Below are positions 2,918 to 52,365 of a stretch of 64,000 bases of DNA, piece after piece (the first letter of the stretch is position 1; each line of letters starts with the position of its first letter). A program made the position numbers and the translations under genes. The DNA is taken from NCBI GenBank assembly GCA_001820095.1, contig MHOO01000011.1:199227-263226 (forward strand), in the 5' to 3' direction. The DNA comes from Candidatus Staskawiczbacteria bacterium RIFCSPHIGHO2_01_FULL_39_25. GTDB taxonomy: Bacteria; Patescibacteriota; Minisyncoccia; Minisyncoccales; Staskawiczbacteraceae. The notes beneath the pieces are model-generated. The model was not told where the DNA came from. It saw only the letters and a program-made list of their open reading frames with translations, and did no database searches.

Positions 2918-2936
2918 AAATACAAATAACGAAAAA

Positions 2937-2960
2937 AGCGACCAGCTAGTCGCTTTTTTT
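2937..2960 (+). terminator. rho-independent terminator
   Basis: agcgac-cagct-agtcgct hairpin plus T7 run. Confidence 0.6.
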
Positions 2961-3314
2961 GTTATTTGCTCAATTTTTTAGGTGGCCGATAGCGCCACTT
3001 TTTGTTTGCAAAATTTTTTGAAAATAAGAAGCAGGAACGGCAAATCGAGTCCCAGCCGAAAGGTTCACGGATCGTGGCCGAACTCCAGCGACAGATTGTC
3101 ATGAGTGGCGAAGATCGCAATGCTCAGCAAATCGGTTGCCACAACGACAATTCGGGCGGCGGTCACAATGACAACTAGTTCGTTGTGGGTGCAAGCTCTT
3201 TACTGTCAAACAGGCCCCGGAACTTCATCGAAGTTTCGGGGCTATTCATTTATACAAAAACTAAAAGCGGCTCTTTAACTTGAATGGATTTTTTGTTAAT
3301 ATAATCAAATAAAT

Positions 3315-4148
3315 ATGAGCCAAGATTGGGAATCAAAATTAATGACCTTTGAAGAATATGCCAGAAAAAAACATGATCCAGTATATATTTTTGACGTAGA
3401 ATTTGGCAGTAAAAAAGTAACTTATTTTGGTGCCGAACATAACCACAATCCTGAAAGCCCGATGTTTGATCGCATTGAAGCAGAGTTTAAAAAAGCTGAT
3501 CCCCAGATTGTATTTGTGGAAGGAATGTATTTTTCGCAAGGTGGAAAACAAAAGGCGATCGAAAAATATAAAAATACCGATAGAGAATCGGTTATTAAAA
3601 ATCACGGAGAATCAGTGTATGTTTTCAGGTTAGCGGCTGACGCCGGGATTGAAGTTGATTCTCCAGAATCATCGCTTAGTGATGAAATTACTTTTTTACT
3701 GCAGCAAGAATTTTCAAAGGAACAAATTTTTTGCTTCTATGGGTATCGTCAAATCAATGGATTGCATCGCTTAGCAGATAAATCTAAATTTAATGAAGAA
3801 TTAACAAGATATATTTCAGTTTTTCAAAGGGATAGTCAGTGGAAAGATTTTGATTATTCGCCTGAACATTTGGAAAAAATTGGAAAATCAGTTTGGGGAG
3901 AAGTGCGCGGCGACGTTATGATTAACGATGGGTACCGAACAACACCCGTACCGCCAGAAGATAAGAAATTATTTACACTCATTAATCAGATCAACCAAGA
4001 GGTAACTCATTTTAGAGACTGCAATGTCGTACGGAGAGTTGTAGATGCCTTAAAAACCCACGATCGACTATTTATTATTTTTGGATCAACTCATGCTGTC
4101 ATGCAGGAACCAGCTTTGAGATATTTAGCAGAAAGTTATGATAAATAA
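3315..4148 (+). CDS. hypothetical protein (tentatively TraB/GumN-like)
   Basis: long ORF with AT-rich codon use; FGAEHNH near N-terminus and FGSTHAV near C-terminus resemble the TraB/GumN layout; weak. Confidence 0.45.
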   Translation: MSQDWESKLMTFEEYARKKHDPVYIFDVEFGSKKVTYFGAEHNHNPESPMFDRIEAEFKKADPQIVFVEGMYFSQGGKQKAIEKYKNTDRESVIKNHGESVYVFRLAADAGIEVDSPESSLSDEITFLLQQEFSKEQIFCFYGYRQINGLHRLADKSKFNEELTRYISVFQRDSQWKDFDYSPEHLEKIGKSVWGEVRGDVMINDGYRTTPVPPEDKKLFTLINQINQEVTHFRDCNVVRRVVDALKTHDRLFIIFGSTHAVMQEPALRYLAESYDK

Positions 4149-4149
4149 A

Positions 4150-4239
4150 ATGGCAAAATACGATTCAACAACCAAAGACAATAAATGCATTTTTTGTGAA
4201 ATAGTTTCGGGAAACATAAAAACTCCTGGGCTGTTCTGA
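4150..4239 (+). pseudogene. 5' fragment of a HIT-family (histidine triad) gene
   Basis: encodes MAKYDSTTKDNKCIFCEIVSGNIKTPGLF*, a typical HIT N-terminus (CIFC..V.G); stop TGA is the first 3 nt of the repeat at 4237. Confidence 0.6.
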
Positions 4240-4298
4240 TAAAGGTGGCTGACACCTTTACTCACCTTTACTCCTTTACTTTGACACCTTTACTCGAG
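4237..4298 (+). repeat. direct repeat copy 1 (tgataaaggtggctgacaccttta + cctttac words)
   Basis: 24 nt identical to 12411-12434, followed by similar cctttac/ctttaac word run; contains hairpin taaaggtg-gctga-caccttta. Confidence 0.7.
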
Positions 4299-4427
4299 AA
4301 AATAATATACCTTATAAACCGTTACGCGACGGGGAGGTAATTATCGTTAATGATAATAATTTGGAAATCATAAAATAAAAGAAGGGTGACAACTCGAGTA
4401 GTTATCACCCTTTTGGTTTGCAGGAAA

Positions 4428-5732
4428 TTACGGCGTCAGCCGGTTAGGGCCACGGTAGAGATACGTGGCTTCTCGGATGTTTTTGACACCCAGAAGCATC
4501 ATCAGTACCCGAGCCAGGCCGAGTCCGAAGCCTCCGTGTGGCGGACAGCCATAGCGGAAGCATTCCAAATAGTACTTGATTGGATCCAGGGTCAGGCCTT
4601 TCTCCTGGGCTTGCTGGACCAGAACATCGTACCTATGCTCACGCTGGGCACCCGTCGTCACTTCGAGTCCTTTCCAAAGAAGGTCGAAGCTCTTGGTGGC
4701 TTTCGGGCTATCAGCGTGGCGCATGTGGTAGAACGGACGCACGCTGATCGGGTAGTCGGTCACAAACACGAAGTCGTGGCCGGTTTTTTCTTTCATGTGA
4801 GCGCAGAGTTGGCGCTCGCCTTCGGGATCAAGGTCGCCCTTGGTCTCGGCGGAGAGCACGTGGCCGCGCTGTGCGAGAATCGCGTACGCTTCCTGCATCG
4901 AAAGACGCGGGAAAGGCAGCGTGGGAACTTCCACTTCGACGCCGAAGTACTTGGCCACGGCTTCACTGTGCTTGTCCTTGAGGGACTGGAGTACGTACTG
5001 GAGCCACCGCTCTTCGAACTTCATGACATCGTCGTGGGATTCGATCCAGGAAATCTCCACGTCCACACTAGTAAACTCCGTCGCGTGTCTGGACGTGAAT
5101 GACGGTTCAGCACGGAACACCGGTCCGATCTCAAACACCTTGTCGAAGCCCGCCGACATCGCCATCTGCTTGTAAAACTGAGGCGACTGGGCAAGGTACG
5201 CATTGGTCTCGAAGTATTTGACGGTGAAAAGCTCTGATCCCGATTCACTCGGACTTCCCATGAACTTGGGTGAGTGGATCTCGATGAAACCTTCTCTGGT
5301 CCAGAACTCGCGCATGGCGTGTTCCGCCGCCGTTTGGATCTGGAAGATCAGGTAGTTGGCGGGACGGCGCAGGTCTAGGAAGCGCCAGTCGAGGCGCAGG
5401 TCCAGGCCGGATTCTTCCGTGATAGGAAGAGTCGGAGGAGCCACGTTGATGACTTTGAGGTCATCGATGGCGATTTCCAGACCGCCGAGCTTAATCTTTT
5501 CGTTGGCGACCACGGTGCCGGTCAACTCCACTGCGGTTTCTGCTGTGAGGCTAGAGATGAGGACGCTCAGGGGATCCTCCTTCTTTTCACGCACGGTCTG
5601 GACGAGGCCAGTATGGTCGCGAACGACGATGAACTGGACCCGCTTCTGGTCGCGGAGGGTCTGAACCCATCCTTTGACGCAGACGGTGCTGCCGACGGCA
5701 CTTTTGAGAGTGCTGATCAAGGTACGTTCCAT
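4428..5732 (-). CDS. aspS: aspartyl-tRNA synthetase, archaeal/short type, GC-rich copy
   Basis: class II motifs FRAE, GLEVTTGAQREH, GGFGLGLARVLM; 434 aa without the bacterial insertion domain; G/C-rich third positions unlike host genes; RBS gaaaggaagg upstream. Confidence 0.9.
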   Translation of the reverse strand: MERTLISTLKSAVGSTVCVKGWVQTLRDQKRVQFIVVRDHTGLVQTVREKKEDPLSVLISSLTAETAVELTGTVVANEKIKLGGLEIAIDDLKVINVAPPTLPITEESGLDLRLDWRFLDLRRPANYLIFQIQTAAEHAMREFWTREGFIEIHSPKFMGSPSESGSELFTVKYFETNAYLAQSPQFYKQMAMSAGFDKVFEIGPVFRAEPSFTSRHATEFTSVDVEISWIESHDDVMKFEERWLQYVLQSLKDKHSEAVAKYFGVEVEVPTLPFPRLSMQEAYAILAQRGHVLSAETKGDLDPEGERQLCAHMKEKTGHDFVFVTDYPISVRPFYHMRHADSPKATKSFDLLWKGLEVTTGAQREHRYDVLVQQAQEKGLTLDPIKYYLECFRYGCPPHGGFGLGLARVLMMLLGVKNIREATYLYRGPNRLTP

Positions 5733-5869
5733 AAGAACACCTTCCTTTCAGGTTAGATGACTTGTTAAGGTTCTTATTTTACAGATCTAGACGATAAGTA
5801 AAATACTATGCTACTTTACCTCTTTATTATATATTTGTCAATATTTTATAAAACAAAAATTATGCTATC

Positions 5870-7195
5870 ATGAATGACATGGAAAAGATACATATTGATC
5901 AAATAAAAAATAATATCGGTAAGCAGATAACTATTACCGGATTCGTCCAAACGATCAGAGATCAGAAAAACATTAAGTTTTTTTTGATCCGTGATATTTC
6001 AGGAGTCATCCAGGTTGTCATTACCAAAGACAAGGAAGAGGCATTCAAAAATTCTTCCGGTTTGAGTTTGGAGTCAGTAGTAGAAATTACCGGTTTAGCT
6101 AAAGAAGAAAAACAAGCGCTAGGAGGTTTTGAAATAGCCGTAGAAAGCATTGCGACACTCTCTTTATCTGATCCAGAACTTCCAATCCCTGTTATCGAAA
6201 AAGGCCAACAAGAAGAAACCGACCAGTCGATTCGTCTTGATTGGCGATGGATTGATTTACGTAAAGAAAAAAACACTTTGGTATTTAAAGTGTGGACCGT
6301 TATGGAGCAGGCGTTCCGGGAATACTGGGTTAAGAACAACTATATTGAAATCCATTCTCCAAAACTCATTGCTACCGCAAGTGAATCTGGTTCAGAAGTA
6401 TTTGAAGTGAAATATTTTGAACGCAAAGCTTATCTTGCCCAATCTCCGCAATTTTACAAACAAATGGCCATGGCCGGCGGATTTGAAAAGGTATTTGAAG
6501 TAGGGCCGGTATTTCGAGCTGAACCATCGTTCACATCACGGCATGCTACAGAGTTTACCGGTTATGATACTGAAATTTCTTACGTAAAATCCCATTACGA
6601 TATCATGGAAGAAGAAGAAAAAGTAATTCAATATGCATTAGAAAAAGTAAAAGAAAAATATGGCGAAGAAATCTTGAAAGTATTCGGCAGGGAAGTAGTA
6701 GTTCCTAAAATTCCTTTTCCAAAGATTTCTATGAAAGAGACTAAAGAAATACTAGCGAAGATGAGAATCAAAAGCGAAAAGGAAGGCGATATTTCTCCAG
6801 AAGAAGAACGAAAAATCTGCGAATACGTTAAAGAAAAAGAAAACCACGAATTCGTATTTATCACTGAATATCCGGTAAGTGTGCGGCCGTTTTATCACAT
6901 GCATGATGAAGAAGACCCAAAAGTTACTAAGAGTTTTGATTTGTTATGGAACGGTCTTGAGGTAACTACGGGGGCGCAACGTGAACACAGATACGACGTG
7001 CTGGTTGCGCAGGCCAAAGAAAAAAAGATGGATATTGAACATTTGCAATTTTATCTTAACTTTTTTAAATATGGCTGTCCTCCGCATGGCGGTTATGGTA
7101 TGGGTCCCAACAGAATGATTATGCAGCTTTTGGGACTTGATAATGTTCGAGATGCGATGTTTGTATATCGCGGAGTTAATCGATTGACGCCGTAA
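5870..7195 (+). CDS. aspS: aspartyl-tRNA synthetase, archaeal/short type, AT-rich copy
   Basis: 441 aa with the same class II motifs; long blocks identical to the 4428-5732 product; host-like codon use. Confidence 0.9.
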   Translation: MNDMEKIHIDQIKNNIGKQITITGFVQTIRDQKNIKFFLIRDISGVIQVVITKDKEEAFKNSSGLSLESVVEITGLAKEEKQALGGFEIAVESIATLSLSDPELPIPVIEKGQQEETDQSIRLDWRWIDLRKEKNTLVFKVWTVMEQAFREYWVKNNYIEIHSPKLIATASESGSEVFEVKYFERKAYLAQSPQFYKQMAMAGGFEKVFEVGPVFRAEPSFTSRHATEFTGYDTEISYVKSHYDIMEEEEKVIQYALEKVKEKYGEEILKVFGREVVVPKIPFPKISMKETKEILAKMRIKSEKEGDISPEEERKICEYVKEKENHEFVFITEYPVSVRPFYHMHDEEDPKVTKSFDLLWNGLEVTTGAQREHRYDVLVAQAKEKKMDIEHLQFYLNFFKYGCPPHGGYGMGPNRMIMQLLGLDNVRDAMFVYRGVNRLTP

Positions 7196-7209
7196 AGATA
7201 TTTTGCGTA

Positions 7210-7251
7210 AAAAAATAGCTCGGGGTGAAATGATTCACTCCGAGCTTTATT
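7210..7251. terminator. bidirectional hairpin terminator between convergent genes
   Basis: agctcggggtga-aatgat-tcactccgagct flanked by an A-run and a T-run. Confidence 0.6.
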
Positions 7252-8304
7252 TTACGTCGGGGTTGCCAGATGATCAAGGAAATCGCAATAGGCTGCAGTC
7301 AATGGAGCCTCTTTACTACGTTCCCCGATAATCCGCCTTGCAATGCCTTGAATCCATGTCGCACTGTGCTTGTTATGAAGCCGGAAGGCTTCGCAAGCAA
7401 GAGTTGACAAGATGTCAGCCCAAACTGCCGCATATTCTCCCCAGAATTTGCTCATCTGGTCGAACATTGCGTTGGCTGAGTGTGCGCTTTTGCTTCTTAT
7501 GTCTGCTTCCTCCTGGACCAGCCTGAGCCTCAACGTTTCTGAGAACGACGAGATTGCAGGCATGGCGCAGGATTCAGCCGTTTCTCGCGAAAGTTTTTGA
7601 GCTTTGGCAATATTTTCACCTCTGATGTGCATTGACACCGCGGTGTGCCAATAATTGCCAAGCCTTAAACCTGTGCAAGCAGACATGCATTCCTGCAAAA
7701 GCGAGAACTCGAACACGTTGTAGGGCAACAGTTGTATTGCATCGTTCGCGCGCATAGCGACTGTTGTGTGCAACGTGTCACTTCGCGGCATGAAAGCGAT
7801 ATTGAGCGTGCATGGAATGTCTTGTGATTCCAAGCGCGCAAGATCACTTGCGTCATGGAGGTCGATTACCGCCCGCTTCGTGTCGGAACGAGTCGAAATG
7901 GTTTTTGAAGCCAAATCAAACTGGTTCTTTCCTGAAGCTCCTCCAAAAATCCTCATGCCGTATGAAGAACCTGGTATGGTGATACCGTCGTCTGAAAAAC
8001 AGCAGGCTGATTTGGAGTAGAACGCAATCGGCTCAAGCAGATTCGATCCGGATAGCATATAGATGAAGCGCGCTGCCGCAAGTCCTGGATTGAACAGGGG
8101 CAATGCGCTTTTGAATATGCGTTTTCGCGGATCAGTCAGACAGAGCTGGGCATTGAACACTTCCTGAATCGAGAAGTCCCGGTTCATAGAGTGTTCGCCC
8201 GATTGGTAAGTAATGCCATGCGCACTAATCCTGCCGATCATTTCGCGTATGACCGCATTCGTGTCGTCACCCATGACGACACCTACCGAATGTAGTGAGT
8301 CCAC
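7252..8304 (-). CDS. thymidylate synthase / dCMP-hydroxymethylase-fold protein with C-terminal extension
   Basis: IPCTLNIAFMPRSDTLHTTVAMRANDAIQLLPYNVFEFSLL aligns by eye with ThyA [37 protein letters not shown] (Pro-Cys nucleophile, R-x-x-D, LP-x-N); GTG start 1 nt after upstream stop; GC-rich. Confidence 0.7.
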   Translation of the reverse strand: MDSLHSVGVVMGDDTNAVIREMIGRISAHGITYQSGEHSMNRDFSIQEVFNAQLCLTDPRKRIFKSALPLFNPGLAAARFIYMLSGSNLLEPIAFYSKSACCFSDDGITIPGSSYGMRIFGGASGKNQFDLASKTISTRSDTKRAVIDLHDASDLARLESQDIPCTLNIAFMPRSDTLHTTVAMRANDAIQLLPYNVFEFSLLQECMSACTGLRLGNYWHTAVSMHIRGENIAKAQKLSRETAESCAMPAISSFSETLRLRLVQEEADIRSKSAHSANAMFDQMSKFWGEYAAVWADILSTLACEAFRLHNKHSATWIQGIARRIIGERSKEAPLTAAYCDFLDHLATPT

Positions 8305-8305
8305 A

Positions 8306-9856
8306 TCAAGTCCTCCTTTCTTGTCGGATGAATTCCGTCAGATCCTTCAGGTTTGCCGATGGCTGACAGAGTTGGTTGAGATCTTCGGTCCAGATGCTCA
8401 TCTGGTTTCCTATGATCGGATCAATCACTTCCGGATGAGAAGCCTCATCCTTTTCGACGAGCCGAAAGTGCTTTGCGGCTTGATACGCATTTGCCAAGTC
8501 GTTTTGTGGAATGCCGGTCAACTCGCGTACCACATGATCCGCAAACATGATTCCATGTTTTGCATAGTCCTGAAGCAGGCGCATTGTAGTGTACAGGCGC
8601 AGAGCGGGCGTTTCCATTGCCGAATATGCGACTTGGAATACAAAGTTGCGCATGTCCAGCAAAGAATCGATTCCGGGTTCCACTTCCCGAGCATAGCCAA
8701 GAAGAACATCAGTTGGGCGGGTAACTGCAGTAAGCTGTAGCACATCCCTAGAAATAGTTTCCCAGTAGCCTTTCCAGGAATTTATATGTTCCACCGGCTG
8801 CCAAGAATCGGGCGATGATGCGTTGACGATCATTCTTCCGTTTGCGGGAAGATAGACCGATAGCCTCCTTGAGTGGAATTGACGGGGAGTGTTGTAATTG
8901 GGAACTTGTCCCAATTTTGACCGCCAGTAGGTGTATCCTCGAAGGACGGTTTCGTAAAAATTGTGCCCTTCTCCGTGGGTGCCGCGCATAGAAAGGTTAA
9001 AGAAACTGTCGCCAATTTCTTCCACTTTCTTGACATCGCTCCACGAAGTTCCAGGCACATCCTGTTTCGACATTTTCTTGGCAAAGCCAAGAAAATAGGT
9101 TGGTTTGTAGATTACCGGAATTTCCATGTCTCCGGTAACCAGCCAGCGGGTGGGGAATGCGTCGATGATGGGCAGATTGATTACCGGATCAGAAGGATTC
9201 TTTTCCGGCAGCAATTCTGCTCCAAGTCTTTGCGCCAGTTGGATGTCCAGGTTTTGGTTCGGATCAAGGATAGTGCGAACGACGGGACGGATATTGATTC
9301 CGTCGTCGCTTCGTGCGACCGCATACCTGATTGCATGCAGCACATTCTCAACGGACACGTTGTGGAACGTGTCGTAGCTGATGCGCAGGATGAATGTTAA
9401 ATTCCGTCCTCGCATCTTGTTTCCGCGACGCATGGCGTCGATGAACCTGTCCAACATCCGTTCGGTGGCTTCCGCGCTTTCAGCGAAATAAACGCTGGTG
9501 ATGGTCACCACTTCGTGGATGTTTTCCAGATTTTCGACTGCGTAGCACATGGCATCCATGTTCTCATACGATTCTCCGCCGCCGGAAAATACCAGCAACT
9601 GAGCCTTGGCCTCGTTCATGATCTTCACGAAAATTCGCATCTGATCCATGGAGAGCCGAGGCGGAGAACCACCAAAAATCTTTTTTGCCATTGCCGCCGA
9701 AAAGAGGCAGTTTGGGCATGTCAGTGCGCATTGGTCGGCAGCGTTGACGACCATAACCGAAACTTCGAGATTTTCAGCAGACCCGATTTCCGGTACATGT
9801 CGCGCAAGATAGGCGCGCAGTAAATGGGCGTTGCGATCATCAAACAAAGCGTTCAT
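8306..9856 (-). CDS. radical SAM protein with ~300-aa uncharacterised C-terminal domain
   Basis: CxxxCxxC motif CALTCPNC, glycine-rich FSGGGES; GC-rich; aggag RBS. Confidence 0.75.
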   Translation of the reverse strand: MNALFDDRNAHLLRAYLARHVPEIGSAENLEVSVMVVNAADQCALTCPNCLFSAAMAKKIFGGSPPRLSMDQMRIFVKIMNEAKAQLLVFSGGGESYENMDAMCYAVENLENIHEVVTITSVYFAESAEATERMLDRFIDAMRRGNKMRGRNLTFILRISYDTFHNVSVENVLHAIRYAVARSDDGINIRPVVRTILDPNQNLDIQLAQRLGAELLPEKNPSDPVINLPIIDAFPTRWLVTGDMEIPVIYKPTYFLGFAKKMSKQDVPGTSWSDVKKVEEIGDSFFNLSMRGTHGEGHNFYETVLRGYTYWRSKLGQVPNYNTPRQFHSRRLSVYLPANGRMIVNASSPDSWQPVEHINSWKGYWETISRDVLQLTAVTRPTDVLLGYAREVEPGIDSLLDMRNFVFQVAYSAMETPALRLYTTMRLLQDYAKHGIMFADHVVRELTGIPQNDLANAYQAAKHFRLVEKDEASHPEVIDPIIGNQMSIWTEDLNQLCQPSANLKDLTEFIRQERRT

Positions 9857-9934
9857 CTTTTTCTCCTGGGTTTGAGTTCGGTGCTATATTCTCTCTCGAT
9901 AGAGAGCTTTGACAAGGAGCAATCTTTTGCGTAA

Positions 9935-9963
9935 ATAATAATATAGAATTATAAAAATGTCAA
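9935..9963 (-). promoter_or_regulatory. sigma70-like promoter for 8306-9856/7252-8304 unit
   Basis: minus strand TTGACA, 17 nt spacer, TATTAT in the AT-rich spacer. Confidence 0.5.
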
Positions 9964-9984
9964 CAATAAAAAAGATAATTTTAC

Positions 9985-10017
9985 CATAATAAAACCCCCG
10001 ATTTCTGGTCGAGGGTT
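9985..10017 (-). terminator. terminator after methyltransferase gene
   Basis: minus strand aaccctcga-ccagaaa-tcgggggtt hairpin followed by a T-rich tract. Confidence 0.5.
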
Positions 10018-10038
10018 ATGGCTGAAAAACAGCCTTTA

Positions 10039-10776
10039 TTACTTTGAGGCGCTGCAATGTTTGAAAATTGCGCGCACTGATCCATGGCGATGGTTTTCTT
10101 CGGAACCGGCATGGCTGTGAACGATGTCAGTTTCATCCCAGTGGAGCAGGCTCCAATTTTCCGGCCCGAATAGAGTTTTGATCCGTTCGGGGTTCATAAT
10201 GACTCCTTTCAGTTCCGGCTGGATGTCTGGAGCGGGGTATTTGTCTGTCAGGCTTTGCATGATCAGGTAACCGCTTTTGAGAACGATTTGCCTGATGGCA
10301 TCAATTACTTGATGTAGGACAGATTCTTCCTTGAACACATGCAGAAGGCCGTAACAGACTACGATGTCGAATTGCTCACGGTTGTGTTTCAGGAAGCTGA
10401 GCGCGTCATCTTTGACGAGCGCGATTCTTCCTTCTGGCAACAGTCCCGATTCTTCAAGTTTCACGGTAACATCAAGCAATGTTGCCATGGCAAGAGAATC
10501 TATTTCGACAGCGATAGCCCGTTTAACATCTCGACGGACAAATTCCATGATGTTTTTGCCCGTACCGGCACCCAGTTCCAGAACCGAAAATTCGGTCCAT
10601 GGCAAAGATGCCATCTGGTTGAAGAAATGAACCACTTCGCTTCCAGGCTTTAAGCCCCAGAAATCCAATCCATGGGAGCGATAGCCGTTCCTGTAGAGGC
10701 CGATGCCTTCGCCACTTCCTTTTTGAGGATGGGCGAGGACTTCTTGCATTTCTTCGACAGTGAAGAGTGGATTCAC
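10039..10776 (-). CDS. class I SAM-dependent methyltransferase
   Basis: motif I VLELGAGTGKN, acidic AVEID, post-I VVCYGLLH; GC-rich; 14 nt downstream of radical SAM gene. Confidence 0.8.
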   Translation of the reverse strand: MNPLFTVEEMQEVLAHPQKGSGEGIGLYRNGYRSHGLDFWGLKPGSEVVHFFNQMASLPWTEFSVLELGAGTGKNIMEFVRRDVKRAIAVEIDSLAMATLLDVTVKLEESGLLPEGRIALVKDDALSFLKHNREQFDIVVCYGLLHVFKEESVLHQVIDAIRQIVLKSGYLIMQSLTDKYPAPDIQPELKGVIMNPERIKTLFGPENWSLLHWDETDIVHSHAGSEENHRHGSVRAIFKHCSASK

Positions 10777-10790
10777 TTTGACCCCCTTTC

Positions 10791-11786
10791 TTAATAAGTT
10801 TTTTGGGCGTTTGCGGTTATGGTGAACAGACCGTTGACTGACTGGAGTCGGTTGATGATAGCTTTGGGTTGATCTGTCAGGATATTACTCATGAACACAT
10901 CCTTGGTTCCCTGAGTGACTGTCACGACACCGGTAGGTTGCACGAGGAGTGCCGGACTTGCGTAGAAGTCGGCAAGGCTGTGGATGGTCACCCGGATTTT
11001 GTCTCTGAACAGGCGCAGTGCTTCTTCTACGATTGTCCTGTAAGTGTCATCCGAAACACTCATTCGGTCGGCGTTCAATCCTGAAGTACGTCCGACTTCC
11101 CGCCCGAAGAACTGTGTCAGCTTCCAGTTGTCCACGCCAAGGTCTACCATCATGTGGCCCAGTTGGACAATCTTGTTGATGTCTGAGGTCACTGAGGTGA
11201 TCGTGGTACCGACCTTTACTTTGAAGCCGTACTTTTTCAGTTCGGGGATTAGGGCAATCGTTTTGGTGAAGGCAGCATCGTCTCCCCTGATTTCGCTGTT
11301 GGACTTGGCATCCGGGCCGTCCAGTGAAAGCGAGAACCACTTCACATTTCTGTTTGCACAGAATGCCAGCATGGAATTTGTGACATGCATGCCCGTGGTT
11401 TGCACGATCGTTTCCCGGTTGCGCCGAGAAATTTCATCTACCAGTAGGAGAACGTCGTTGCGGTGAGATTCCGGGTCAGCCCTGACGAAAATCTCGCCAC
11501 CAGTGAGTTGAATCCTGTCCGTCAAAATGGCAAGACTGTTGATGATTTTTGCCATTTGTTCGGTGGAGGCGTCCCTGGTGAGTCCCTGGAACTCCTCTTC
11601 CGCATAGCAGTGCGGACACTGCAGATGACAGCGTCCCGTCACGTAGAGGGAAACAAAACCGATGCGAGCAGCCAGGGCAGGCAGTTTTTCATACTGTTCG
11701 AATATTTCAGCGAGTGCTTGGGCGCGTTTGTCGCCCAATTCCTGGCGGGAAGTAACGTACTTCCTGCTAACCTGTGGTAGTTCCAT
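10791..11786 (-). CDS. radical SAM protein, viperin-like (tentative) / MoaA-like fold
   Basis: CHLQCPHC cluster motif, LTGGEIF, SLSLDG; C-terminal NWKLTQFF...SVSDDTY parallels viperin RWKVFQCL...SDEEF by eye; GC-rich. Confidence 0.7.
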   Translation of the reverse strand: MELPQVSRKYVTSRQELGDKRAQALAEIFEQYEKLPALAARIGFVSLYVTGRCHLQCPHCYAEEEFQGLTRDASTEQMAKIINSLAILTDRIQLTGGEIFVRADPESHRNDVLLLVDEISRRNRETIVQTTGMHVTNSMLAFCANRNVKWFSLSLDGPDAKSNSEIRGDDAAFTKTIALIPELKKYGFKVKVGTTITSVTSDINKIVQLGHMMVDLGVDNWKLTQFFGREVGRTSGLNADRMSVSDDTYRTIVEEALRLFRDKIRVTIHSLADFYASPALLVQPTGVVTVTQGTKDVFMSNILTDQPKAIINRLQSVNGLFTITANAQKTY

Positions 11787-11964
11787 GGCATCTTCCTTTC
11801 GTTGATGGGGTTGATTGTAAAAGAGCCGTTCATGCTCTCTAGTACTAGTGTATCAGTGTGCTAATATAATATCACTTATAATTACTTTTGTAAAGACTTT
11901 TGACCATTGAAAATTATTGCATTTTGGTTAGAAAAAAGGCAAAATGGATTTATTAGAAATTAAT

Positions 11965-12378
11965 ATGAATATTTTTGAAAGGGTTAAAAAATTGAATTTT
12001 CCACTAGGAGAATATGTTGTCATCGGAGCTGGTATCCTTGAAGCTATTGGGATAAGGAATACTCATGATGTCGATATTATTGTGGCGCCACAATTGTTTG
12101 AGAAGCTTAGAGAATCTAAAATCTATAAAGAAGAAATAAAGTGGGGCAAAATATTTTTAATTGGAGATGAAATTGAAATTGGTACCAAATTAGATTGGGA
12201 AAACTATTCAACTACTATTGAAGAAGCAATTAATACTGCAGCTATTATTAACGGTGTGCCGTTTTTAAACCTTGAAGAAACTATAAAATTTAAAAGGGCG
12301 ATGGGCAGGAAAAAAGACTTTAAAGATATTGAATTGATAGAAAGTTATTTAAAAAATTATGATAAAAATCTACTTTAA
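11965..12378 (+). CDS. hypothetical protein, nucleotidyltransferase-fold-like
   Basis: VVIGAGILEAIGIRNTHDVDIIV resembles a minimal NTase G-x-motif plus DxD; ATG 11965 preferred over 11944 because the fragment at 13263 starts at the equivalent residue. Confidence 0.45.
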   Translation: MNIFERVKKLNFPLGEYVVIGAGILEAIGIRNTHDVDIIVAPQLFEKLRESKIYKEEIKWGKIFLIGDEIEIGTKLDWENYSTTIEEAINTAAIINGVPFLNLEETIKFKRAMGRKKDFKDIELIESYLKNYDKNLL

Positions 12379-42410: not shown

Positions 42411-42965
42411 ATGATTAATCTTTTACCGCCGCAAGAAAAAGAAGAATTGCTGCTGGAAAAAAGCAAAAAGCTAGCTATCATTATCGGAAGTATGATTTTA
42501 ATTTCCTTATGTTGCCTGGTTTTAGTTTTGATTTCATTGAAATTTTATATTCTCAAAGAAGTTTTTTATCAGAAAACTATTTTAAGCAATATAGAAAAAC
42601 AATACCAAACTCCAGATTCTATGCAGGTTAAGGGTATTTTGCAAAAGTATAATAAAACATTTGCCAGCATAGATAATTTTTATAAAACAGAAATATATTT
42701 CAGTGATATCTTAAAAATTATCTTAGAAGTTCAAAGGCCCCAGGACTTATATTTTACTAATATCGTTATGGAAAAGAGCAAGGATAAAGAAAACAGGGTT
42801 AAGGTGGGTATTTCCGGTGTAAGCAATACTCGCGACGATCTCTTGGTTTTTAAAGATAATATCAACGGCAATAAAAAAATAGAAAATGTATATTTTCCGC
42901 CTGATAGCTGGATAAAGCAAAAAGATATCAATTTTTCATTAACATTTGAAATTAATATACCTTGA
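42411..42965 (+). CDS. PilN-like protein
   Basis: MINLLPPQEKEE N-terminus, single TM. Confidence 0.6.
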   Translation: MINLLPPQEKEELLLEKSKKLAIIIGSMILISLCCLVLVLISLKFYILKEVFYQKTILSNIEKQYQTPDSMQVKGILQKYNKTFASIDNFYKTEIYFSDILKIILEVQRPQDLYFTNIVMEKSKDKENRVKVGISGVSNTRDDLLVFKDNINGNKKIENVYFPPDSWIKQKDINFSLTFEINIP

Positions 42966-43131
42966 ATTACGAAATGCCTCATGAAAAAGCAAGTTTCAGG
43001 TCTTTCCTCCAAATTTGGGTCGAAAATCCGCAATAATTATTTTACGTAGCAAGCTACGTAAAATAATTCTATCAAATTTTCGTCTTCCAAATTTGGAGGA
43101 AATACCATGAAAGCATTTCGTAATTCAAGGT
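42960..43131. repeat. ~170-bp imperfect palindrome
   Basis: ccttgaattacgaaatgc...gcatttcgtaattcaagg outer arms, tttcctccaaatttgg / ccaaatttggagga middle arms, ttttacgtagc-aa-gctacgtaaaa centre. Confidence 0.8.
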
Positions 43132-43145
43132 AAGGATATGCAAAA

Positions 43146-43691
43146 ATGAAAATTCAACCTACTTTCTACATAGCCCTCATTATTTTCATGGCATCGGGTG
43201 CTTTAGTTTTGTTGATGGTATATCCACTTTTAAAGGATATTAACCATAGTACTATAGAAATTTTATCGGATCAGGACAGGGTAATTTTAGTAGAGTCAGA
43301 AACAAGAGAATTAGATAATTTTAAGAGCAAGCGCAAGGATTACGAACCCAACTTTAGCAAAGCAGATGCTTTATTTGTTGACTTGCAAAACCCCGTAAAT
43401 TTTATCAGGTTTCTAGAAGATACCGCATCAAGCTTAAATATCAAACTAGATATTAATCTGCCCACCCTTCCAAAAGAACGTACGGGTAATATGCCTCTGG
43501 CTCTTTTCCAGGTTTCTGCCAAGGGGAGTTTTTTAAATATCTTAGAATTTTCCAAAAAACTGGAAACCGGTCCCTATCTTATGGGAATCCGCAAGCTGGC
43601 AATAAGCAAGTTAACTGAAAAAACCGCTGATGGAGAAAGCCCTTCTCATAACGTCAATGCAGATTTCTTGTTAGAAATTATGGGCAAATAA
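43146..43691 (+). CDS. PilO-like protein (tentative)
   Basis: single N-terminal TM plus coiled segment, position after pilN-like gene. Confidence 0.45.
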   Translation: MKIQPTFYIALIIFMASGALVLLMVYPLLKDINHSTIEILSDQDRVILVESETRELDNFKSKRKDYEPNFSKADALFVDLQNPVNFIRFLEDTASSLNIKLDINLPTLPKERTGNMPLALFQVSAKGSFLNILEFSKKLETGPYLMGIRKLAISKLTEKTADGESPSHNVNADFLLEIMGK

Positions 43692-43693
43692 TA

Positions 43694-43961
43694 GGGACAT
43701 GGGACTCGAACAGAATCACTTGAGCTCTCGTATATTGCTTGTATTCAAGGATTGAGGAGTGAGACGATGCAAATCGCATCGTTGAGCTCTGAATACGAAG
43801 AAGACAAGCAATATACGAGAGCCCGAAGGGAAGCGAAAAAATGGCTCATTTCTTCGTTTTTGCTTCTCAAGGTAGCTAAAGCTACCTTTCGTCGCAAGAA
43901 ACATTGAAATGATCACATTTTTTCGCTTCTCAAGCTGATTCGCGTTCGAGCCCCACGTCCC
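43694..43961 (+). repeat. TIR-bounded structured element, copy 1 (MITE-like or structured RNA)
   Basis: ends gggacatgggactcgaacagaatcacttgag / ctcaagctgattcgcgttcgagccccacgtccc are inverted repeats; nested internal stems; related to 51715-51979 in opposite orientation. Confidence 0.75.
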
Positions 43962-43980
43962 TAAGCCAGCAATTAAAAAG

Positions 43981-44304: not shown

Positions 44305-44464
44305 GAACCTAATATTGTATATTAGAGTAATTTCTAATTAACCTAATTATTCTAATTAACCTAATCAAATCCCAATAAGTGAATGTCAAAATTAGAAATT
44401 AGGATTTAGGAATTATTTAGAATAATTAGAGCAATTAGTATAATTAGAATAATTCTAAAATATA

Positions 44465-46192: not shown

Positions 46193-46423
46193 ATGGATAT
46201 AGATCAAGTGCGTTTATGGGCAACGGTAGGATCTATTGCAATTGGCACCATAGCTCCCGCTATTTCAATCGGCTTTATTGGTTCAACCGCCGTAAAATCA
46301 ATTAGCAGGAATCCGGAAGCCGCCGCTAAAATCCAAACAGCCATGATTTTAGCAATTGCGTTTGCTGAAGCTATTGCTATTTATTCATTGGTTATTGCGC
46401 TAATCATTAAGTTCGTCGCCTAA
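46193..46423 (+). CDS. atpE: F0F1 ATP synthase subunit c
   Basis: two-helix hairpin with carboxylate in AFAEAIAIY. Confidence 0.9.
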   Translation: MDIDQVRLWATVGSIAIGTIAPAISIGFIGSTAVKSISRNPEAAAKIQTAMILAIAFAEAIAIYSLVIALIIKFVA

Positions 46424-46511
46424 TATAATGCAAATATGCAAATGACGTGCCAATGATGCAAATACGTATTCGCAATATTGGCGTAACATTCGCATATTGG
46501 CATTTTATATA

Positions 46512-49974: not shown

Positions 49975-51360
<1,386 letters not shown>

Positions 51361-51480
51361 ATCTAGAATCTCGTATCTTGAATCTGGAATAGAATAAAGA
51401 ATAGAGAATGTGAAAAGCCATATTCCAAATTCACCATTCAATTCAAGATACCAGATACTAAATTCAAGATTCTAGTTAAA

Positions 51481-51723
51481 ATGAAACTATCTATTTACTC
51501 ACTAAAAAAAGTGCTATTCCAAGGGCAGGCGCAGATGTTAAACTGCCAGACTGTCATGGGAGAAATTACGATATTGGATAACCACGAAACCTTTATTGGG
51601 GTTTTAAAGCCTGGCGTGGCTAAAGTTGTTGATTCTGCCCAAAAAGAGCATTTCTTTGAGATAACATCAGGGTTTTTAGAAGTGCGCGAAGGCAACGAAG
51701 TTCGTTGTATAGTAGAGGTGTGA
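51481..51723 (+). CDS. atpC: F0F1 ATP synthase subunit epsilon, N-terminal beta-sandwich only (80 aa)
   Basis: GEITILDNHETFIGVLKPG motif; no C-terminal helical hairpin; last codons and stop lie in the element at 51715. Confidence 0.75.
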   Translation: MKLSIYSLKKVLFQGQAQMLNCQTVMGEITILDNHETFIGVLKPGVAKVVDSAQKEHFFEITSGFLEVREGNEVRCIVEV

Positions 51724-51979
51724 GACTCGAACAGAACCAGCTTGAGAAGCGAAAACAGAGATGAGGTCAAGGCGCGACGAGGAAACATAGCCTTGCGCTA
51801 TGTTTCCGAAGTCGCAACGCAGACATCATCTCTGTTTTCGCTTCCCTTCGGGCTCTGTCACTTGCTTGTCTTCTGCGTATTCAGAATGAAACGATGCGCA
51901 AGGCATCGTTTCATTCCTCAATCCTTGAATACAAGCAATATACGAGAGCTCAATTGGTTCTGTTCGAGTCCCACACCTC
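51715..51979 (-). repeat. TIR-bounded structured element, copy 2 (inverted relative to copy 1)
   Basis: gaggtgtgagactcgaacagaacca / tggttctgttcgagtcccacacctc inverted ends; reverse complement shares ~135 nt conserved module with 43694-43961. Confidence 0.75.
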
Positions 51980-52164
51980 TAGAGCAATAAAAATATACTG
52001 CGGGCTGTGGATAAGCTATTGACACGTTGCATGGTATAATAAGAGTGTAGAGTCATGGAACCTAATCTGTCCTATGGCCCTTTAAAGACGTTTTACGAAT
52101 AATCGAGTGAAACCAGTATTCTAAATATCTGGCAAAGGTCGATGTATTTTAAAACATTATTCTT

Positions 52165-52365
52165 ATGCAAAAACTAACAACATTAGATATTGTAGCCCTT
52201 GTTTTACTAGTAGTAGGCGGATTGAATTGGGGATTATTGGGATTAGTTAACATGAATGTGGTAGATACGGTCTTTGGCATGACGATCTCCCGATTCATCT
52301 ACATTGTAGTGGGTTTGGCGGCTCTCTATGTGGCATGGCTTTGGATGAAGCTAGAGAGGAAATAA
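52165..52365 (+). CDS. DUF378-family small membrane protein
   Basis: LDIVALVLLVVGGLNWGLLG pattern, two TM helices. Confidence 0.7.
   Translation: MQKLTTLDIVALVLLVVGGLNWGLLGLVNMNVVDTVFGMTISRFIYIVVGLAALYVAWLWMKLERK

What the first reader, a model, noticed from the sequence alone, without database searches (positions are those of the whole stretch)
43694..43961. Conserved ~265-bp TIR-bounded, deeply nested hairpin element present twice in opposite orientation
Seen: 43694-43961 and the reverse complement of 51715-51979 share three features. (a) Inverted termini (gggac/gaggtg..gggactcgaacagaa...ttgag versus ctcaagctg.ttc..gttcgag.c.cac). (b) A ~135-nt conserved module (ctctcgtatattgcttgtattcaaggattgagg..acgatgc..gcatcgt..ctgaatacg.agaagacaagcaa..gagcccgaagggaagcgaaaa). 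(c) A ~90-nt inner region bracketed by gaagcgaaaa/ttttcgcttc. The inner region is completely different in sequence between copies, yet folds into long hairpins in each (for example ggtagc-taaa-gctacc versus ggaaacatagc-gcaa-ggctatgtttcc). Both copies sit immediately after the last gene of an operon segment (pilO-like, atpC). Both are flanked by TA on each side, which is weak evidence in AT-rich DNA. Inference: either a MITE-like non-autonomous mobile element or a structured RNA acting as a terminator or processing module. A conserved fold with diverged sequence in the inner arm hints at structural selection.
Basis: partly seen in the sequence, partly recalled or inferred. Interest (0 to 1): 0.65.

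Follow-up and report, generated by a model that had tools for sequence, protein, structure and literature searches.

The report
Mobile double-hairpin repeat in a CPR bacterium
The two look-alike ~265-bp hairpin sequences are copies of a small non-coding "jumping" palindromic repeat that has inserted at the ends of genes in one groundwater Staskawiczbacteria population; it is an undescribed but ordinary kind of selfish DNA, not a terminator or a known RNA gene.

Summary
Window 43694-43961 (+) and 51715-51979 (-) are homologous (78% over 260 nt, E 1e-49). Each folds into a long outer stem enclosing two side-by-side hairpins (z -15 and -17).

The source is a Rifle-aquifer Candidatus Staskawiczbacteria MAG. 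At least five distinct junctions exist in this population. Three copies are ~99% identical and sit after atpC, ruvB and a 223-aa ORF, and many assemblies break or mis-join inside the element.

Three related species keep the pilN-pilO-106aa-RR-atp gene order. They have 0-10 nt where the window has the 268-nt copy 1, and none carries the element. So it is an insertion, and copy 1 lies inside an operon, not at its end.

Insertions sit within a few nt of stop codons, are flanked by TA, and replace the C-termini or stop codons of AtpC, RuvB and the 223-aa ORF. Both strands fold equally well. There is no promoter, no U-tract terminator and no Rfam match, and no transposase lies nearby.

Best reading: a MITE/REPIN-like non-autonomous palindromic element whose mobilising enzyme is unidentified. 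A different 276-nt element with the same architecture is present or absent between 99.9%-identical strains of a relative.

Interest is modest: a new member of a known kind.

The parts
43694..43961 (+). Copy 1 of the element (268 nt), divergent subfamily. It is inserted between the pilO-like gene (stop at 43691) and the 107-aa gene (start 43981).
   Evidence: Relatives have a 0-10 nt spacer at this site.
43692..43693 (.). TA immediately 5' of copy 1. A second TA lies at 43962-43963. These are either a candidate TA target-site duplication or the outermost pairs of the palindrome.
43694..43725 (+). 5' terminal arm of copy 1 (GGGACATGGGACTCGAACAGAATCACTTGAGC). It pairs with 43930-43961.
43726..43821 (+). 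Left, conserved hairpin module of copy 1. It has a 17-bp perfect lower stem, a conserved asymmetric internal loop (ATTCAAGGATTGAGG / CTGAATACGAAGAAGA) and an apical hairpin ACGATGC-AAATC-GCATCGT.
   Evidence: (I10).
43822..43830 (+). Junction mini-hairpin CCCGAAGGG between the two modules. It is identical in all copies.
43831..43929 (+). Right hairpin module of copy 1. Its base (AAGCGAAAA / TTTTCGCTT) is conserved and its inner ~80 nt are fast-diverging.
43930..43961 (+). 3' terminal arm of copy 1. It carries three A.C mismatches against the 5' arm.
51715..51979 (-). Copy 2 of the element (265 nt), the young subfamily. It is antisense to the atp operon, with TA at 51713-51714 and 51980-51981.
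   Evidence: I4.
51715..51745 (-). 3' arm of copy 2. On the + strand it supplies the last two codons and the stop codon of atpC (gag gtg TGA, 51715-51723).
51746..51844 (-). Right hairpin module of copy 2 (apex GGAAACATAGC-GCAAG-GCTATGTTTCC).
   Evidence: I8.
51854..51947 (-). Left conserved hairpin module of copy 2. Its upper stem is a perfect 15 bp and its lower stem is imperfect.
   Evidence: (I3).
51948..51979 (-). 5' arm of copy 2 (GAGGTGTGGGACTCGAACAGAACCAATTGAGC).

Best explanation
This is a non-coding, non-autonomous palindromic mobile element of about 260-310 bp (MITE-like, with REPIN-like traits). It is confined, as far as the data reach, to one Candidatus Staskawiczbacteria (Patescibacteria/CPR) population from the Rifle aquifer.

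Anatomy: 25-32-nt inverted terminal arms (consensus TA-GGGGTGTGGGACTCGAACAGAACCA) close a junction that carries two long hairpins separated by a CCCGAAGGG mini-hairpin.

Shown:
- It has been copied to at least four or five unlinked sites.
- It lands within a few nucleotides of stop codons in very short spacers.
- It occurs in either orientation.
- It is flanked by TA.
- It rewrites the C-terminus or stop codon of AtpC, RuvB and a 223-aa ORF.

Inferred:
- It is mobilised in trans by an enzyme encoded elsewhere in the genome. One option is a TA-duplicating cut-and-paste transposase of the IS630/Tc1-mariner type. The other is a hairpin-recognising HUH/Y1 enzyme acting on single-stranded DNA, as for REPINs.
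- Pairing of the arms is kept either because the hairpin is the substrate or because of template switching inside the quasipalindrome.
- When co-transcribed it must form an extremely stable RNA hairpin that may affect mRNA processing or stability. That would be a side effect and not its reason for existing.
For: Multiple copies with unrelated flanks:
- Copies 1 and 2 lie in the window.
- Left junctions exist after ruvB (L005, L012) and after a 223-aa ORF (L011, L034, L039).
- A right junction lies before a Pro_CA_2 gene (L012, L014, L035-L041).
- A fifth junction is seen in protein P0001.

Recent copying: the young copies are 98.9-99.6% identical.

Repeat behaviour in assemblies: contigs from many assemblies end inside the element, or join different flanks across it.

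Insertion relative to relatives:
- Orthologous pilN-pilO-106aa-RR-atp loci in three relatives have a 10-nt spacer or overlapping genes where the window has 289 nt. Orthology was confirmed by blastp.
- Their AtpC ends RCIIE*/RCIVD*, while the window reads RCIVEV* with the V codon and the stop codon inside the element.
- blastn and nhmmer find no copy in about 110 kb of relatives.

Effects on host genes:
- RuvB reads 16 codons into the element.
- The 223-aa ORF stops at TAG, made of the flanking TA plus the first G of the element. Removing the element plus one TA restores an in-frame TAA.

TA flanks: TA abuts five of the six ends of the three complete copies, and the sixth is offset by 1 nt. The background TA frequency is 0.071.

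No strand signal: both strands fold equally well, and the element occurs in both orientations relative to host genes.

No RNA-gene or coding signal: there is no promoter, terminator or Rfam family. The ORFs inside the element have no homologues other than the element itself.

Analogy from a relative: a 276-nt element of the same architecture is present in L020/L021 and absent in L022, whose flanks are 99.85-99.95% identical.
Against: - No transposase or autonomous partner with matching ends was found. About 30 window ORFs and the Pfam tables of the loci show none. The rest of the genome could not be searched.
- TA...TA is self-complementary, so a target duplication cannot be told apart from two extra base pairs of the palindrome.
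- The 45-nt hairpin nested inside one copy has no TA duplication.
- No empty site was seen within the same species for this family.
- Internal blocks are more conserved (100%) than the arms (73-81%), and the outermost 7 bp of the arms co-vary. Both are unusual for a transposase-recognised TIR.
- The family was found only in this population. Exact-pattern scans of GTDB representatives, JGI metagenomes and viral contigs gave only this organism or chance hits.
- Which left flank goes with which right flank is ambiguous for the young copies, because assemblers cannot resolve the repeat.
Confidence: 0.72

Rival explanations
1. REPIN-type replicator. The unit that is copied is the single-stranded DNA hairpin itself. 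It would be excised and re-inserted by a single-copy HUH/Y1 (RAYT or IS200/IS605-like) enzyme without target duplication, and the flanking TAG would be part of the recognition motif. This is a mechanistic variant of the best explanation, not an opposite to it.
For: - Arms co-vary: four fully compensated pairs in 27 bp among three sequences.
- The inner hairpin diverges fast yet stays a hairpin, with about eight compensated pairs. REPINs show exactly this pattern, with conserved ends and a variable spacer carrying compensatory changes (PMC3116915).
- TAG is conserved at both ends of all copies.
- The nested 45-nt hairpin has no TA duplication.
- The polymorphic 276-nt element of the relative shows no clean target duplication.
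Against: - No Y1/HUH gene was seen in the DNA held.
- The element is three times longer than described REPINs and has two branches.
- Some stems carry uncompensated mismatches.
- TA on five of six ends fits a TA duplication equally well.
Confidence: 0.2
2. Functional structured RNA. This would be a cis-acting mRNA element (RNase III processing site, 3' stabiliser, transcriptional insulator or terminator) or a small RNA gene, kept by selection and spread by duplication.
For: - Extreme folding energy.
- Blocks of 39, 22 and 18 nt are 100% conserved, including a non-palindromic internal loop, next to an inner region of only 42% identity. This is rate heterogeneity that neutral decay does not explain.
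- Compensated pairs are present.
- All copies sit at gene 3' ends.
- Other operon spacers in this genome and its relatives also hold very stable hairpins.
Against: - No U-tract terminator and no promoter.
- No Rfam family.
- Both strands fold equally, and the copies lie in both orientations relative to transcription.
- Copy 1 splits two genes that are translationally close-coupled in relatives.
- Relatives lack the element altogether.
- It damages C-termini.
- Stems decay without compensation in places.
Confidence: 0.1
3. Plain duplicated spacer or assembly artefact. The two copies would be a local segmental duplication, or a chimeric assembly, with no mobility.
For: The two copies are only 8 kb apart in one window. 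Some contigs are clearly chimeric across the repeat: L005 joins ruvB to atpA, and L002/L033 join atpC to Pro_CA_2.
Against: - Copy 1 and copy 2 are recovered identically in independent assemblies from several samples and pipelines (NCBI, ENA, JGI).
- Flanks share no similarity beyond the element.
- Further junctions lie on other contigs.
- The two copies differ by 22%, which rules out a recent local duplication.
Confidence: 0.02

Closest known systems
REPINs (REP doublets forming hairpins) mobilised by RAYT transposases (PMC3116915)
   Same: - Non-coding, extragenic, multi-copy.
- The whole unit is a long hairpin.
- Conserved end regions with a less conserved inner part that keeps pairing through compensatory changes.
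- No transposase of its own.
   Different: - 265-310 nt instead of about 70-110 nt.
- Two side-by-side hairpins inside the outer stem.
- Copy number appears low.
- No RAYT gene identified.
- Found in Patescibacteria, not in Proteobacteria or Cyanobacteria.
Correia repeat-enclosed elements (CREE/NEMIS) of Neisseria (PMC2649163, PMC2229807)
   Same: - Small MITE with ~26-bp inverted ends.
- TA at both junctions.
- Inserted next to or into gene ends and co-transcribed.
- The transcript hairpin is an RNase III substrate in Neisseria, which is a plausible side effect here.
   Different: - No sequence similarity.
- Roughly twice the length, with a branched fold.
- No IHF-type site or promoter hexamers found.
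- RNase III processing is not testable here.
IS630/Tc1-mariner-derived bacterial MITEs (TA target duplication; the family properties are from my own knowledge)
   Same: TA flanks, inverted ends of about 25-30 bp, size of a few hundred bp, dependence on a transposase supplied in trans.
   Different: - No cognate IS630-like element with matching ends was found.
- The terminal 7 bp vary between copies in a concerted way.
- Internal blocks are more conserved than the ends.
Rickettsia palindromic elements and ERIC/RUP-type palindromic repeats (my own knowledge; review PMC3184786)
   Same: Palindromic repeats that can overlap coding ends and add residues to host proteins. Here they add tails to AtpC and RuvB.
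   Different: Unrelated sequence. RPEs insert in frame inside genes, whereas here only the extreme 3' ends are touched.
276-nt polymorphic double-hairpin element of a related Staskawiczbacteria (L020 9267-9542)
   Same: - Identical architecture: outer stem, two long hairpins, and a CCC-loop-GGG mini-hairpin at the junction.
- Located in a spacer of the same pil-atp gene cluster.
- On the opposite strand the junction reads CCCGAAGGG, as in the finding.
   Different: - Sequence similarity is not significant (p 0.1-0.45).
- The covariance-model hit of 27 bits is barely above generic hairpins at 22 bits.
- No TA flanks and no clean target duplication.

Membership tests
Bacterial MITE | Small (under about 600 bp) and without coding capacity | tested here: met
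   The element is 265-310 nt. Its internal ORFs (66-82 aa) have no homologue except another copy of the element among 5.8 and 1.8 billion proteins.
Bacterial MITE | Terminal inverted repeats | tested here: met
   Copy 2 arms are 27 nt and 96% complementary. Copy 1 arms are about 27 bp with three A.C mismatches.
Bacterial MITE | Several dispersed copies with unrelated flanks | tested here: met
   There are at least four or five distinct junctions: pilO/107aa, atpC/DUF378, ruvB, 223-aa ORF/Pro_CA_2, and P0001. Pairing of some flanks is ambiguous.
Bacterial MITE | Target-site duplication | tested here: inconclusive
   TA abuts five of six ends, and the sixth is offset by 1 nt. TA...TA also extends the palindrome, and no same-species empty site is available.
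Bacterial MITE | Autonomous IS with the same ends encoding the transposase | not testable with these tools
   No transposase occurs in the window or in the fetched loci. TIR-pattern scans of GTDB representatives, JGI metagenomes and viral contigs found no longer element. The rest of this genome could not be read.
Bacterial MITE | Presence/absence at orthologous sites | tested here: met
   The element is absent from the pilO-106aa spacer and from the atpC 3' end in three related species. Within-species polymorphism was not seen for this family. It was seen for the architecturally similar element in L020 versus L022.
REPIN/REP-RAYT system | Hairpin unit with conserved ends, variable paired spacer and compensatory changes | tested here: met
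   Four compensated pairs occur in the outer stem and about eight in the inner hairpin. The inner region is 42% identical yet still folds as a hairpin.
REPIN/REP-RAYT system | RAYT (Y1_Tnp, PF01797) gene in the genome, usually flanked by REPINs | not testable with these tools
REPIN/REP-RAYT system | Size of about 70-110 nt made of two inverted REP singlets | tested here: not met
   The element is 265-310 nt with a branched two-hairpin interior.
Correia element (CREE) | Characteristic Neisseria inverted-repeat sequence and core | tested here: not met
   The arms read GGGGTGTGGGACTCGAACAGAACC. By my recollection of the Correia repeat sequence (not retrieved or aligned here), they do not resemble it. 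No hit was found in annotated plasmid or phage records.
Intrinsic (Rho-independent) terminator | GC-rich hairpin followed directly by a U-tract | tested here: not met
   No terminator-like site lies at either end of either copy. The sequences after the element read TAAGCCAGC and TACTATAC.
Any curated RNA family (Rfam 15) | Covariance-model score at or above the gathering threshold | tested here: not met
   There are no hits at gathering threshold in the window. Only generic hairpin (miRNA/snoRNA) matches far below threshold appear in permissive scans.
Integron attC site | R''/R' core sites RYYYAAC...GTTRRRY, 57-141 bp, within a cassette array | tested here: not met
   By inspection the arms have CTCGAAC / GTTCGAG, which violate the consensus at the R positions. 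The length is 265 nt or more, and the neighbours are pil and atp housekeeping operons.

The most novel reading that the evidence does not exclude
Staskawiczbacteria may carry a clade-wide class of 'double-hairpin' elements: an outer stem plus two long hairpins around a CCC-GAA-GGG junction. Their architecture, but not their sequence, would be conserved between species. They would move in and out of operon spacers without a classical transposase or target duplication. This could be a new kind of hairpin-templated replicator, or a mobile RNA module whose conserved asymmetric internal loop and junction are bound by a host or element-encoded factor.
Probability: 0.12. Interest if true: 0.65.

Novelty: new member of a known kind. 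Interest (0 to 1): 0.35.

Why it matters
CPR/Patescibacteria have tiny, densely packed genomes and are thought to carry few repeats. My full-text searches found no description of MITE-like elements in this group.

This element shows that such genomes tolerate 270-nt hairpins wedged between tightly coupled operon genes and into stop codons. The same repeats break and mis-join MAG assemblies: three different left flanks are joined to one right flank in public assemblies.

If the shared architecture with the polymorphic element of a relative reflects common descent or a common mechanism, it would define a lineage-specific class of hairpin replicators. That class would be worth testing for how it moves and for its effects on mRNA processing.

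Tried and rejected
RNA-family and tRNA checks
- Known RNA families: Rfam at gathering threshold on the whole window, plus permissive scans on both copies, gave only generic hairpin noise.
- tRNA or tRNA-derived: ARAGORN found nothing. The arm shares 12 nt (TTCGAGTCCCAC) with the T-arm of a tRNA-Ser of the same organism, but the 5' T-stem partner is missing. I treat this as coincidence or an unproven origin.
- Self-cleaving ribozymes, retron msr/msd, IS110 bridge RNA and TnpB/IscB guide RNA: there is no Rfam hit and no adjacent RT, recombinase or nuclease gene.
- Integron attC: the core sites do not fit.

Searches for further copies
- Exact-pattern scans of GTDB representatives gave 0 and then 3 hits, of which two were read and lie inside coding sequence and the third was not inspected.
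- The JGI metagenome scan gave 3 loci from this organism plus 2 other short arm matches with no element behind them: L010 is the same record as the GTDB coding-sequence hit L007, and L013 matches only part of the arm.
- Viral contig scans gave nothing or GC-rich coding chance hits.
- Plasmid and phage records gave no match.
- Using the element's spurious ORF as a protein probe gave one hit only, P0001. Its contig is not on record.
- One contig look-up was wasted on a wrong start codon.

Homology to the relative's element
- Pairwise alignment was not significant.
- A covariance model of the right module gave 27 bits against 22 bits for an unrelated hairpin. Homology is left open.

Other tests
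- Idea that the 45-nt hairpin nested in one copy is an arms-only derivative: 12 of 14 nt match at one end (p about 0.004 by shuffling), which is suggestive only.
- Inversion of the inner hairpin between subfamilies is rejected. The direct orientation aligns significantly and the reverse complement does not.
- Strand assignment from G.U versus A.C pairs showed no asymmetry.

Full report

Yes. Window 43694-43961 (+) and the reverse complement of 51715-51979 align over their whole length. blastn gives 78% identity over 260 nt, E 1e-49.

Identity is very uneven:
- 5' arm 81%
- left hairpin module 84%, with a 39-nt block at 100%
- junction plus base of the right hairpin 100%
- inner 80 nt of the right hairpin 42%
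- 3' arm 73%

The inner region is not unrelated. In direct orientation it aligns far better than shuffles (score 8 against -13 +/- 4.5, 0 of 1000). In reverse-complement orientation it does not.

Each copy folds into a long outer stem that closes two side-by-side hairpins separated by a CCCGAAGGG mini-hairpin. Energies are -138.8 and -159.1 kcal/mol, z -15.0 and -17.0. TA abuts both ends of both copies.

**2. Where does it come from, and how many copies are there?**

The exact AtpD protein places the window in a Rifle-aquifer metagenome-assembled genome, GCA_001820275.1. Its AtpB carries the name Candidatus Staskawiczbacteria bacterium RIFCSPLOWO2_01_FULL_40.

Independent assemblies from NCBI, ENA and JGI reproduce both copies. 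Several contigs end inside the element, or join different flanks across it.

A scan with the arm pattern, plus contig look-ups, produced further junctions:
- a left junction after ruvB (L005, L012/L032)
- a left junction after a 223-aa ORF next to three tRNA genes (L011, L034, L039)
- a right junction 28 nt before a Pro_CA_2 gene (L012, L014, L035-L041)

The single protein-database hit to the element's spurious ORF, P0001, carries yet another flank.

The young copies are 98.9-99.6% identical to copy 2. The one after the 223-aa ORF carries an extra 45-nt hairpin nested between GAGAAG and CGAAAA.

Because the repeat is longer than the reads, the Pro_CA_2 flank is joined to ruvB, atpC or the 223-aa ORF in different assemblies. 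Synteny with a relative, where tRNA genes sit next to Pro_CA_2 (L042), favours the 223-aa ORF pairing.

At least four, and probably five or more, copies therefore exist. Two lie in 71 kb of unbiased sequence.

**3. Is it an insertion?**

Three related species (AtpB 80-84% identical; L015/L016, L018, L020-L022) keep the order pilM-pilN-pilO-106aa-response regulator-atp operon. blastp confirms full-length orthology.

At the copy 1 site, their pilO-like gene and the 106-aa gene are 10 nt apart or overlap. The window has 289 nt there. Copy 1 is thus wedged inside an operon.

At the copy 2 site, their AtpC ends RCIIE* or RCIVD*. The window's AtpC ends RCIVEV*, with the V codon and TGA inside the element's arm.

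At the other copies, RuvB reads 16 extra codons (RGVGLEQNQLEKRKQR) into the element. The 223-aa ORF stops at TAG, made of the flanking TA plus the first G of the element. Deleting the element plus one TA restores ccc TAA.

blastn and nhmmer find no copy in the relatives. Exact-pattern scans of GTDB representatives, JGI metagenomes, viral contigs, plasmids and phages find nothing beyond this population.

**4. Is it RNA or DNA?**

Several results argue against an RNA gene or terminator:
- Both strands fold about equally: -138.8 / -141.4 for copy 1 and -159.1 / -151.0 for copy 2.
- Copy 1 is sense to its operon. Copies 2-4 are antisense to the upstream gene.
- There is no sigma-70-like promoter and no hairpin-plus-U-tract terminator.
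- There is no Rfam family.

The evidence on structure is mixed. The outer stem shows four fully compensated pairs among three sequences, including one between 99%-identical copies (GAGG...CCTC versus GGGG...CCCC). It also shows one G.U and three A.C mismatches. About eight compensated pairs occur in the inner hairpin.

Against this, copy 1 has a perfect lower stem and an imperfect upper stem in the left module, and the young subfamily has the reverse. Each lineage is therefore decaying from a perfect palindrome.

Such paired change with a variable inner hairpin is described for REPINs (PMC3116915). It can also arise by template switching in quasipalindromes (my own background knowledge).

One point is unexplained. 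Internal blocks, including a non-palindromic internal loop, are 100% conserved while the arms are only 73-81% identical.

**5. What is the mechanism?**

The class is well supported: a non-autonomous palindromic mobile element. The enzyme is unknown.

No transposase was found among about 30 window ORFs or in the Pfam tables of about 100 kb from this genome.

TA at five of six ends, plus the restored TAA stop codon, favours a TA-duplicating cut-and-paste enzyme of the IS630/Tc1-mariner type.

Three observations favour a hairpin-recognising single-stranded-DNA mechanism of the REPIN/RAYT type instead: the co-varying arm tips, the conserved TAG at both ends, and the TA-less nested hairpin.

I rate the class at about 0.7 and each specific mechanism well below that.

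**6. Context noticed on the way**

This genome's operon spacers hold other very stable hairpins. The main example is 42958-43132 (z -14.9), which spans the whole pilN-pilO spacer.

Relatives have their own. The most informative is a 276-nt insertion, L020 9267-9542. It is absent from strain L022, whose flanks are 99.85-99.95% identical.

That insertion folds into the same outer stem / two hairpins / CCC-loop-GGG architecture. Its sequence similarity to the finding is not significant. A covariance-model hit of 27 bits is only slightly above an unrelated hairpin at 22 bits.

It shows directly that elements of this shape come and go in the clade.

**7. Verdict**

- The MITE-like reading is supported.
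- The terminator or structured-RNA reading is not supported.

This is an undescribed, lineage-restricted member of the known world of bacterial palindromic mobile repeats. It has a few odd traits: a branched double hairpin, internal blocks more conserved than the ends, and co-varying tips. Those traits keep a small probability open for something more unusual.

Noticed in passing
window 42958-43132: A second, unrelated 175-nt perfect nested hairpin (-81.8 kcal/mol, z -14.9). It fills the whole pilN-pilO spacer and overlaps the pilN stop codon. In relatives these two genes overlap. Its ends also read TA...TA.
   Followed up: partly
window 44332-44454, 46423-46508, 51358-51466: More inverted-repeat or palindromic spacers lie inside the same pil-atp gene cluster: 107aa-RR, atpE-atpF and atpD-atpC. 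The first is built from repeated TTCTAATTAACCTAAT units. z-scores are -2.1 for the atpE-atpF spacer, -4.5 for atpD-atpC and -5.3 for 107aa-RR.
   Followed up: partly
window 2918-3314: A 397-nt intergenic region folds strongly (z -6.5 to -8.5). It holds a terminator-like perfect hairpin at 2923-2968 and then a GC-rich multi-stem region (about 3030-3260). Rfam gives no convincing family, so this may be an unannotated CPR ncRNA.
   Followed up: partly
L020 9267-9542 (absent in L022): A 276-nt double-hairpin element is present or absent between strains with 99.85-99.95% identical flanks. The empty site reads aaaTAGA|TGGACTC. The filled site has three tandem 11-mers (GAGATGGGCTC GAGATGGACTC GAGCTGGACTC) at its right end that resemble the target, and there is no clean target duplication.
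   Followed up: partly
L015 707-1077: A 371-nt spacer upstream of pilM in another relative contains a near-perfect hairpin with ~37-bp arms (GAGAAACTTACAGACGTCCAACGTC...). It folds at -121.5 kcal/mol with z -9.8 for the spacer itself, and -128.5 kcal/mol with z -10.1 for a slightly wider stretch (L015 700-1085).
   Followed up: no
L039 2610-2654 (also L011 2551-2595, L034): A 45-nt hairpin (TAGGGACGCGAGGCGTAATTTGC-TTTA-GCAAATTCGCCCCGTCCT) is nested inside one copy of the element. Its first 14 nt match the 3' arm of copy 1 at 12 of 14 positions, so it may be an arms-only mini-derivative.
   Followed up: partly
L015 7753-8115 and 10652-11029; L018 131-475; L020 1838-2065: Relatives carry small selfish-looking genes (23S_rRNA_IVP/bAvd-like, PDDEXK_3, GIY-YIG) inserted between atp or pil operon genes. 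The window genome has none at those places.
   Followed up: no
window 51980-52165 versus L015 11316-12026 and L020 16451-17158: The short-chain dehydrogenase gene that directly follows atpC in relatives is missing in the window genome. Copy 2 plus 185 nt of spacer sit there instead, which may reflect an element-associated deletion.
   Followed up: no
L011 1737-1820 versus the element arms: The arm motif TTCGAGTCCCAC is identical to the T-loop and 3' T-stem of a tRNA-Ser of the same organism. The 5' T-stem partner is absent from the element, so a tRNA origin is unproven.
   Followed up: partly
window 4428-5732 (-) and 5870-7195 (+); 4001-12000: Two divergently oriented paralogous class II (Asp/Asn/Lys-type) tRNA synthetase genes lie in an 8-kb stretch with clearly higher G+C (0.43-0.49 against about 0.38). 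The stretch also holds a thymidylate-synthase-like gene and a radical SAM gene.
   Followed up: no
L002/L033, L005, L012/L032, L034: Public assemblies of this population join different flanks across the repeat: atpC-Pro_CA_2, ruvB-atpA, ruvB-Pro_CA_2, and a scaffold gap of Ns. Gene order around these copies in the deposited MAGs should not be trusted.
   Followed up: yes
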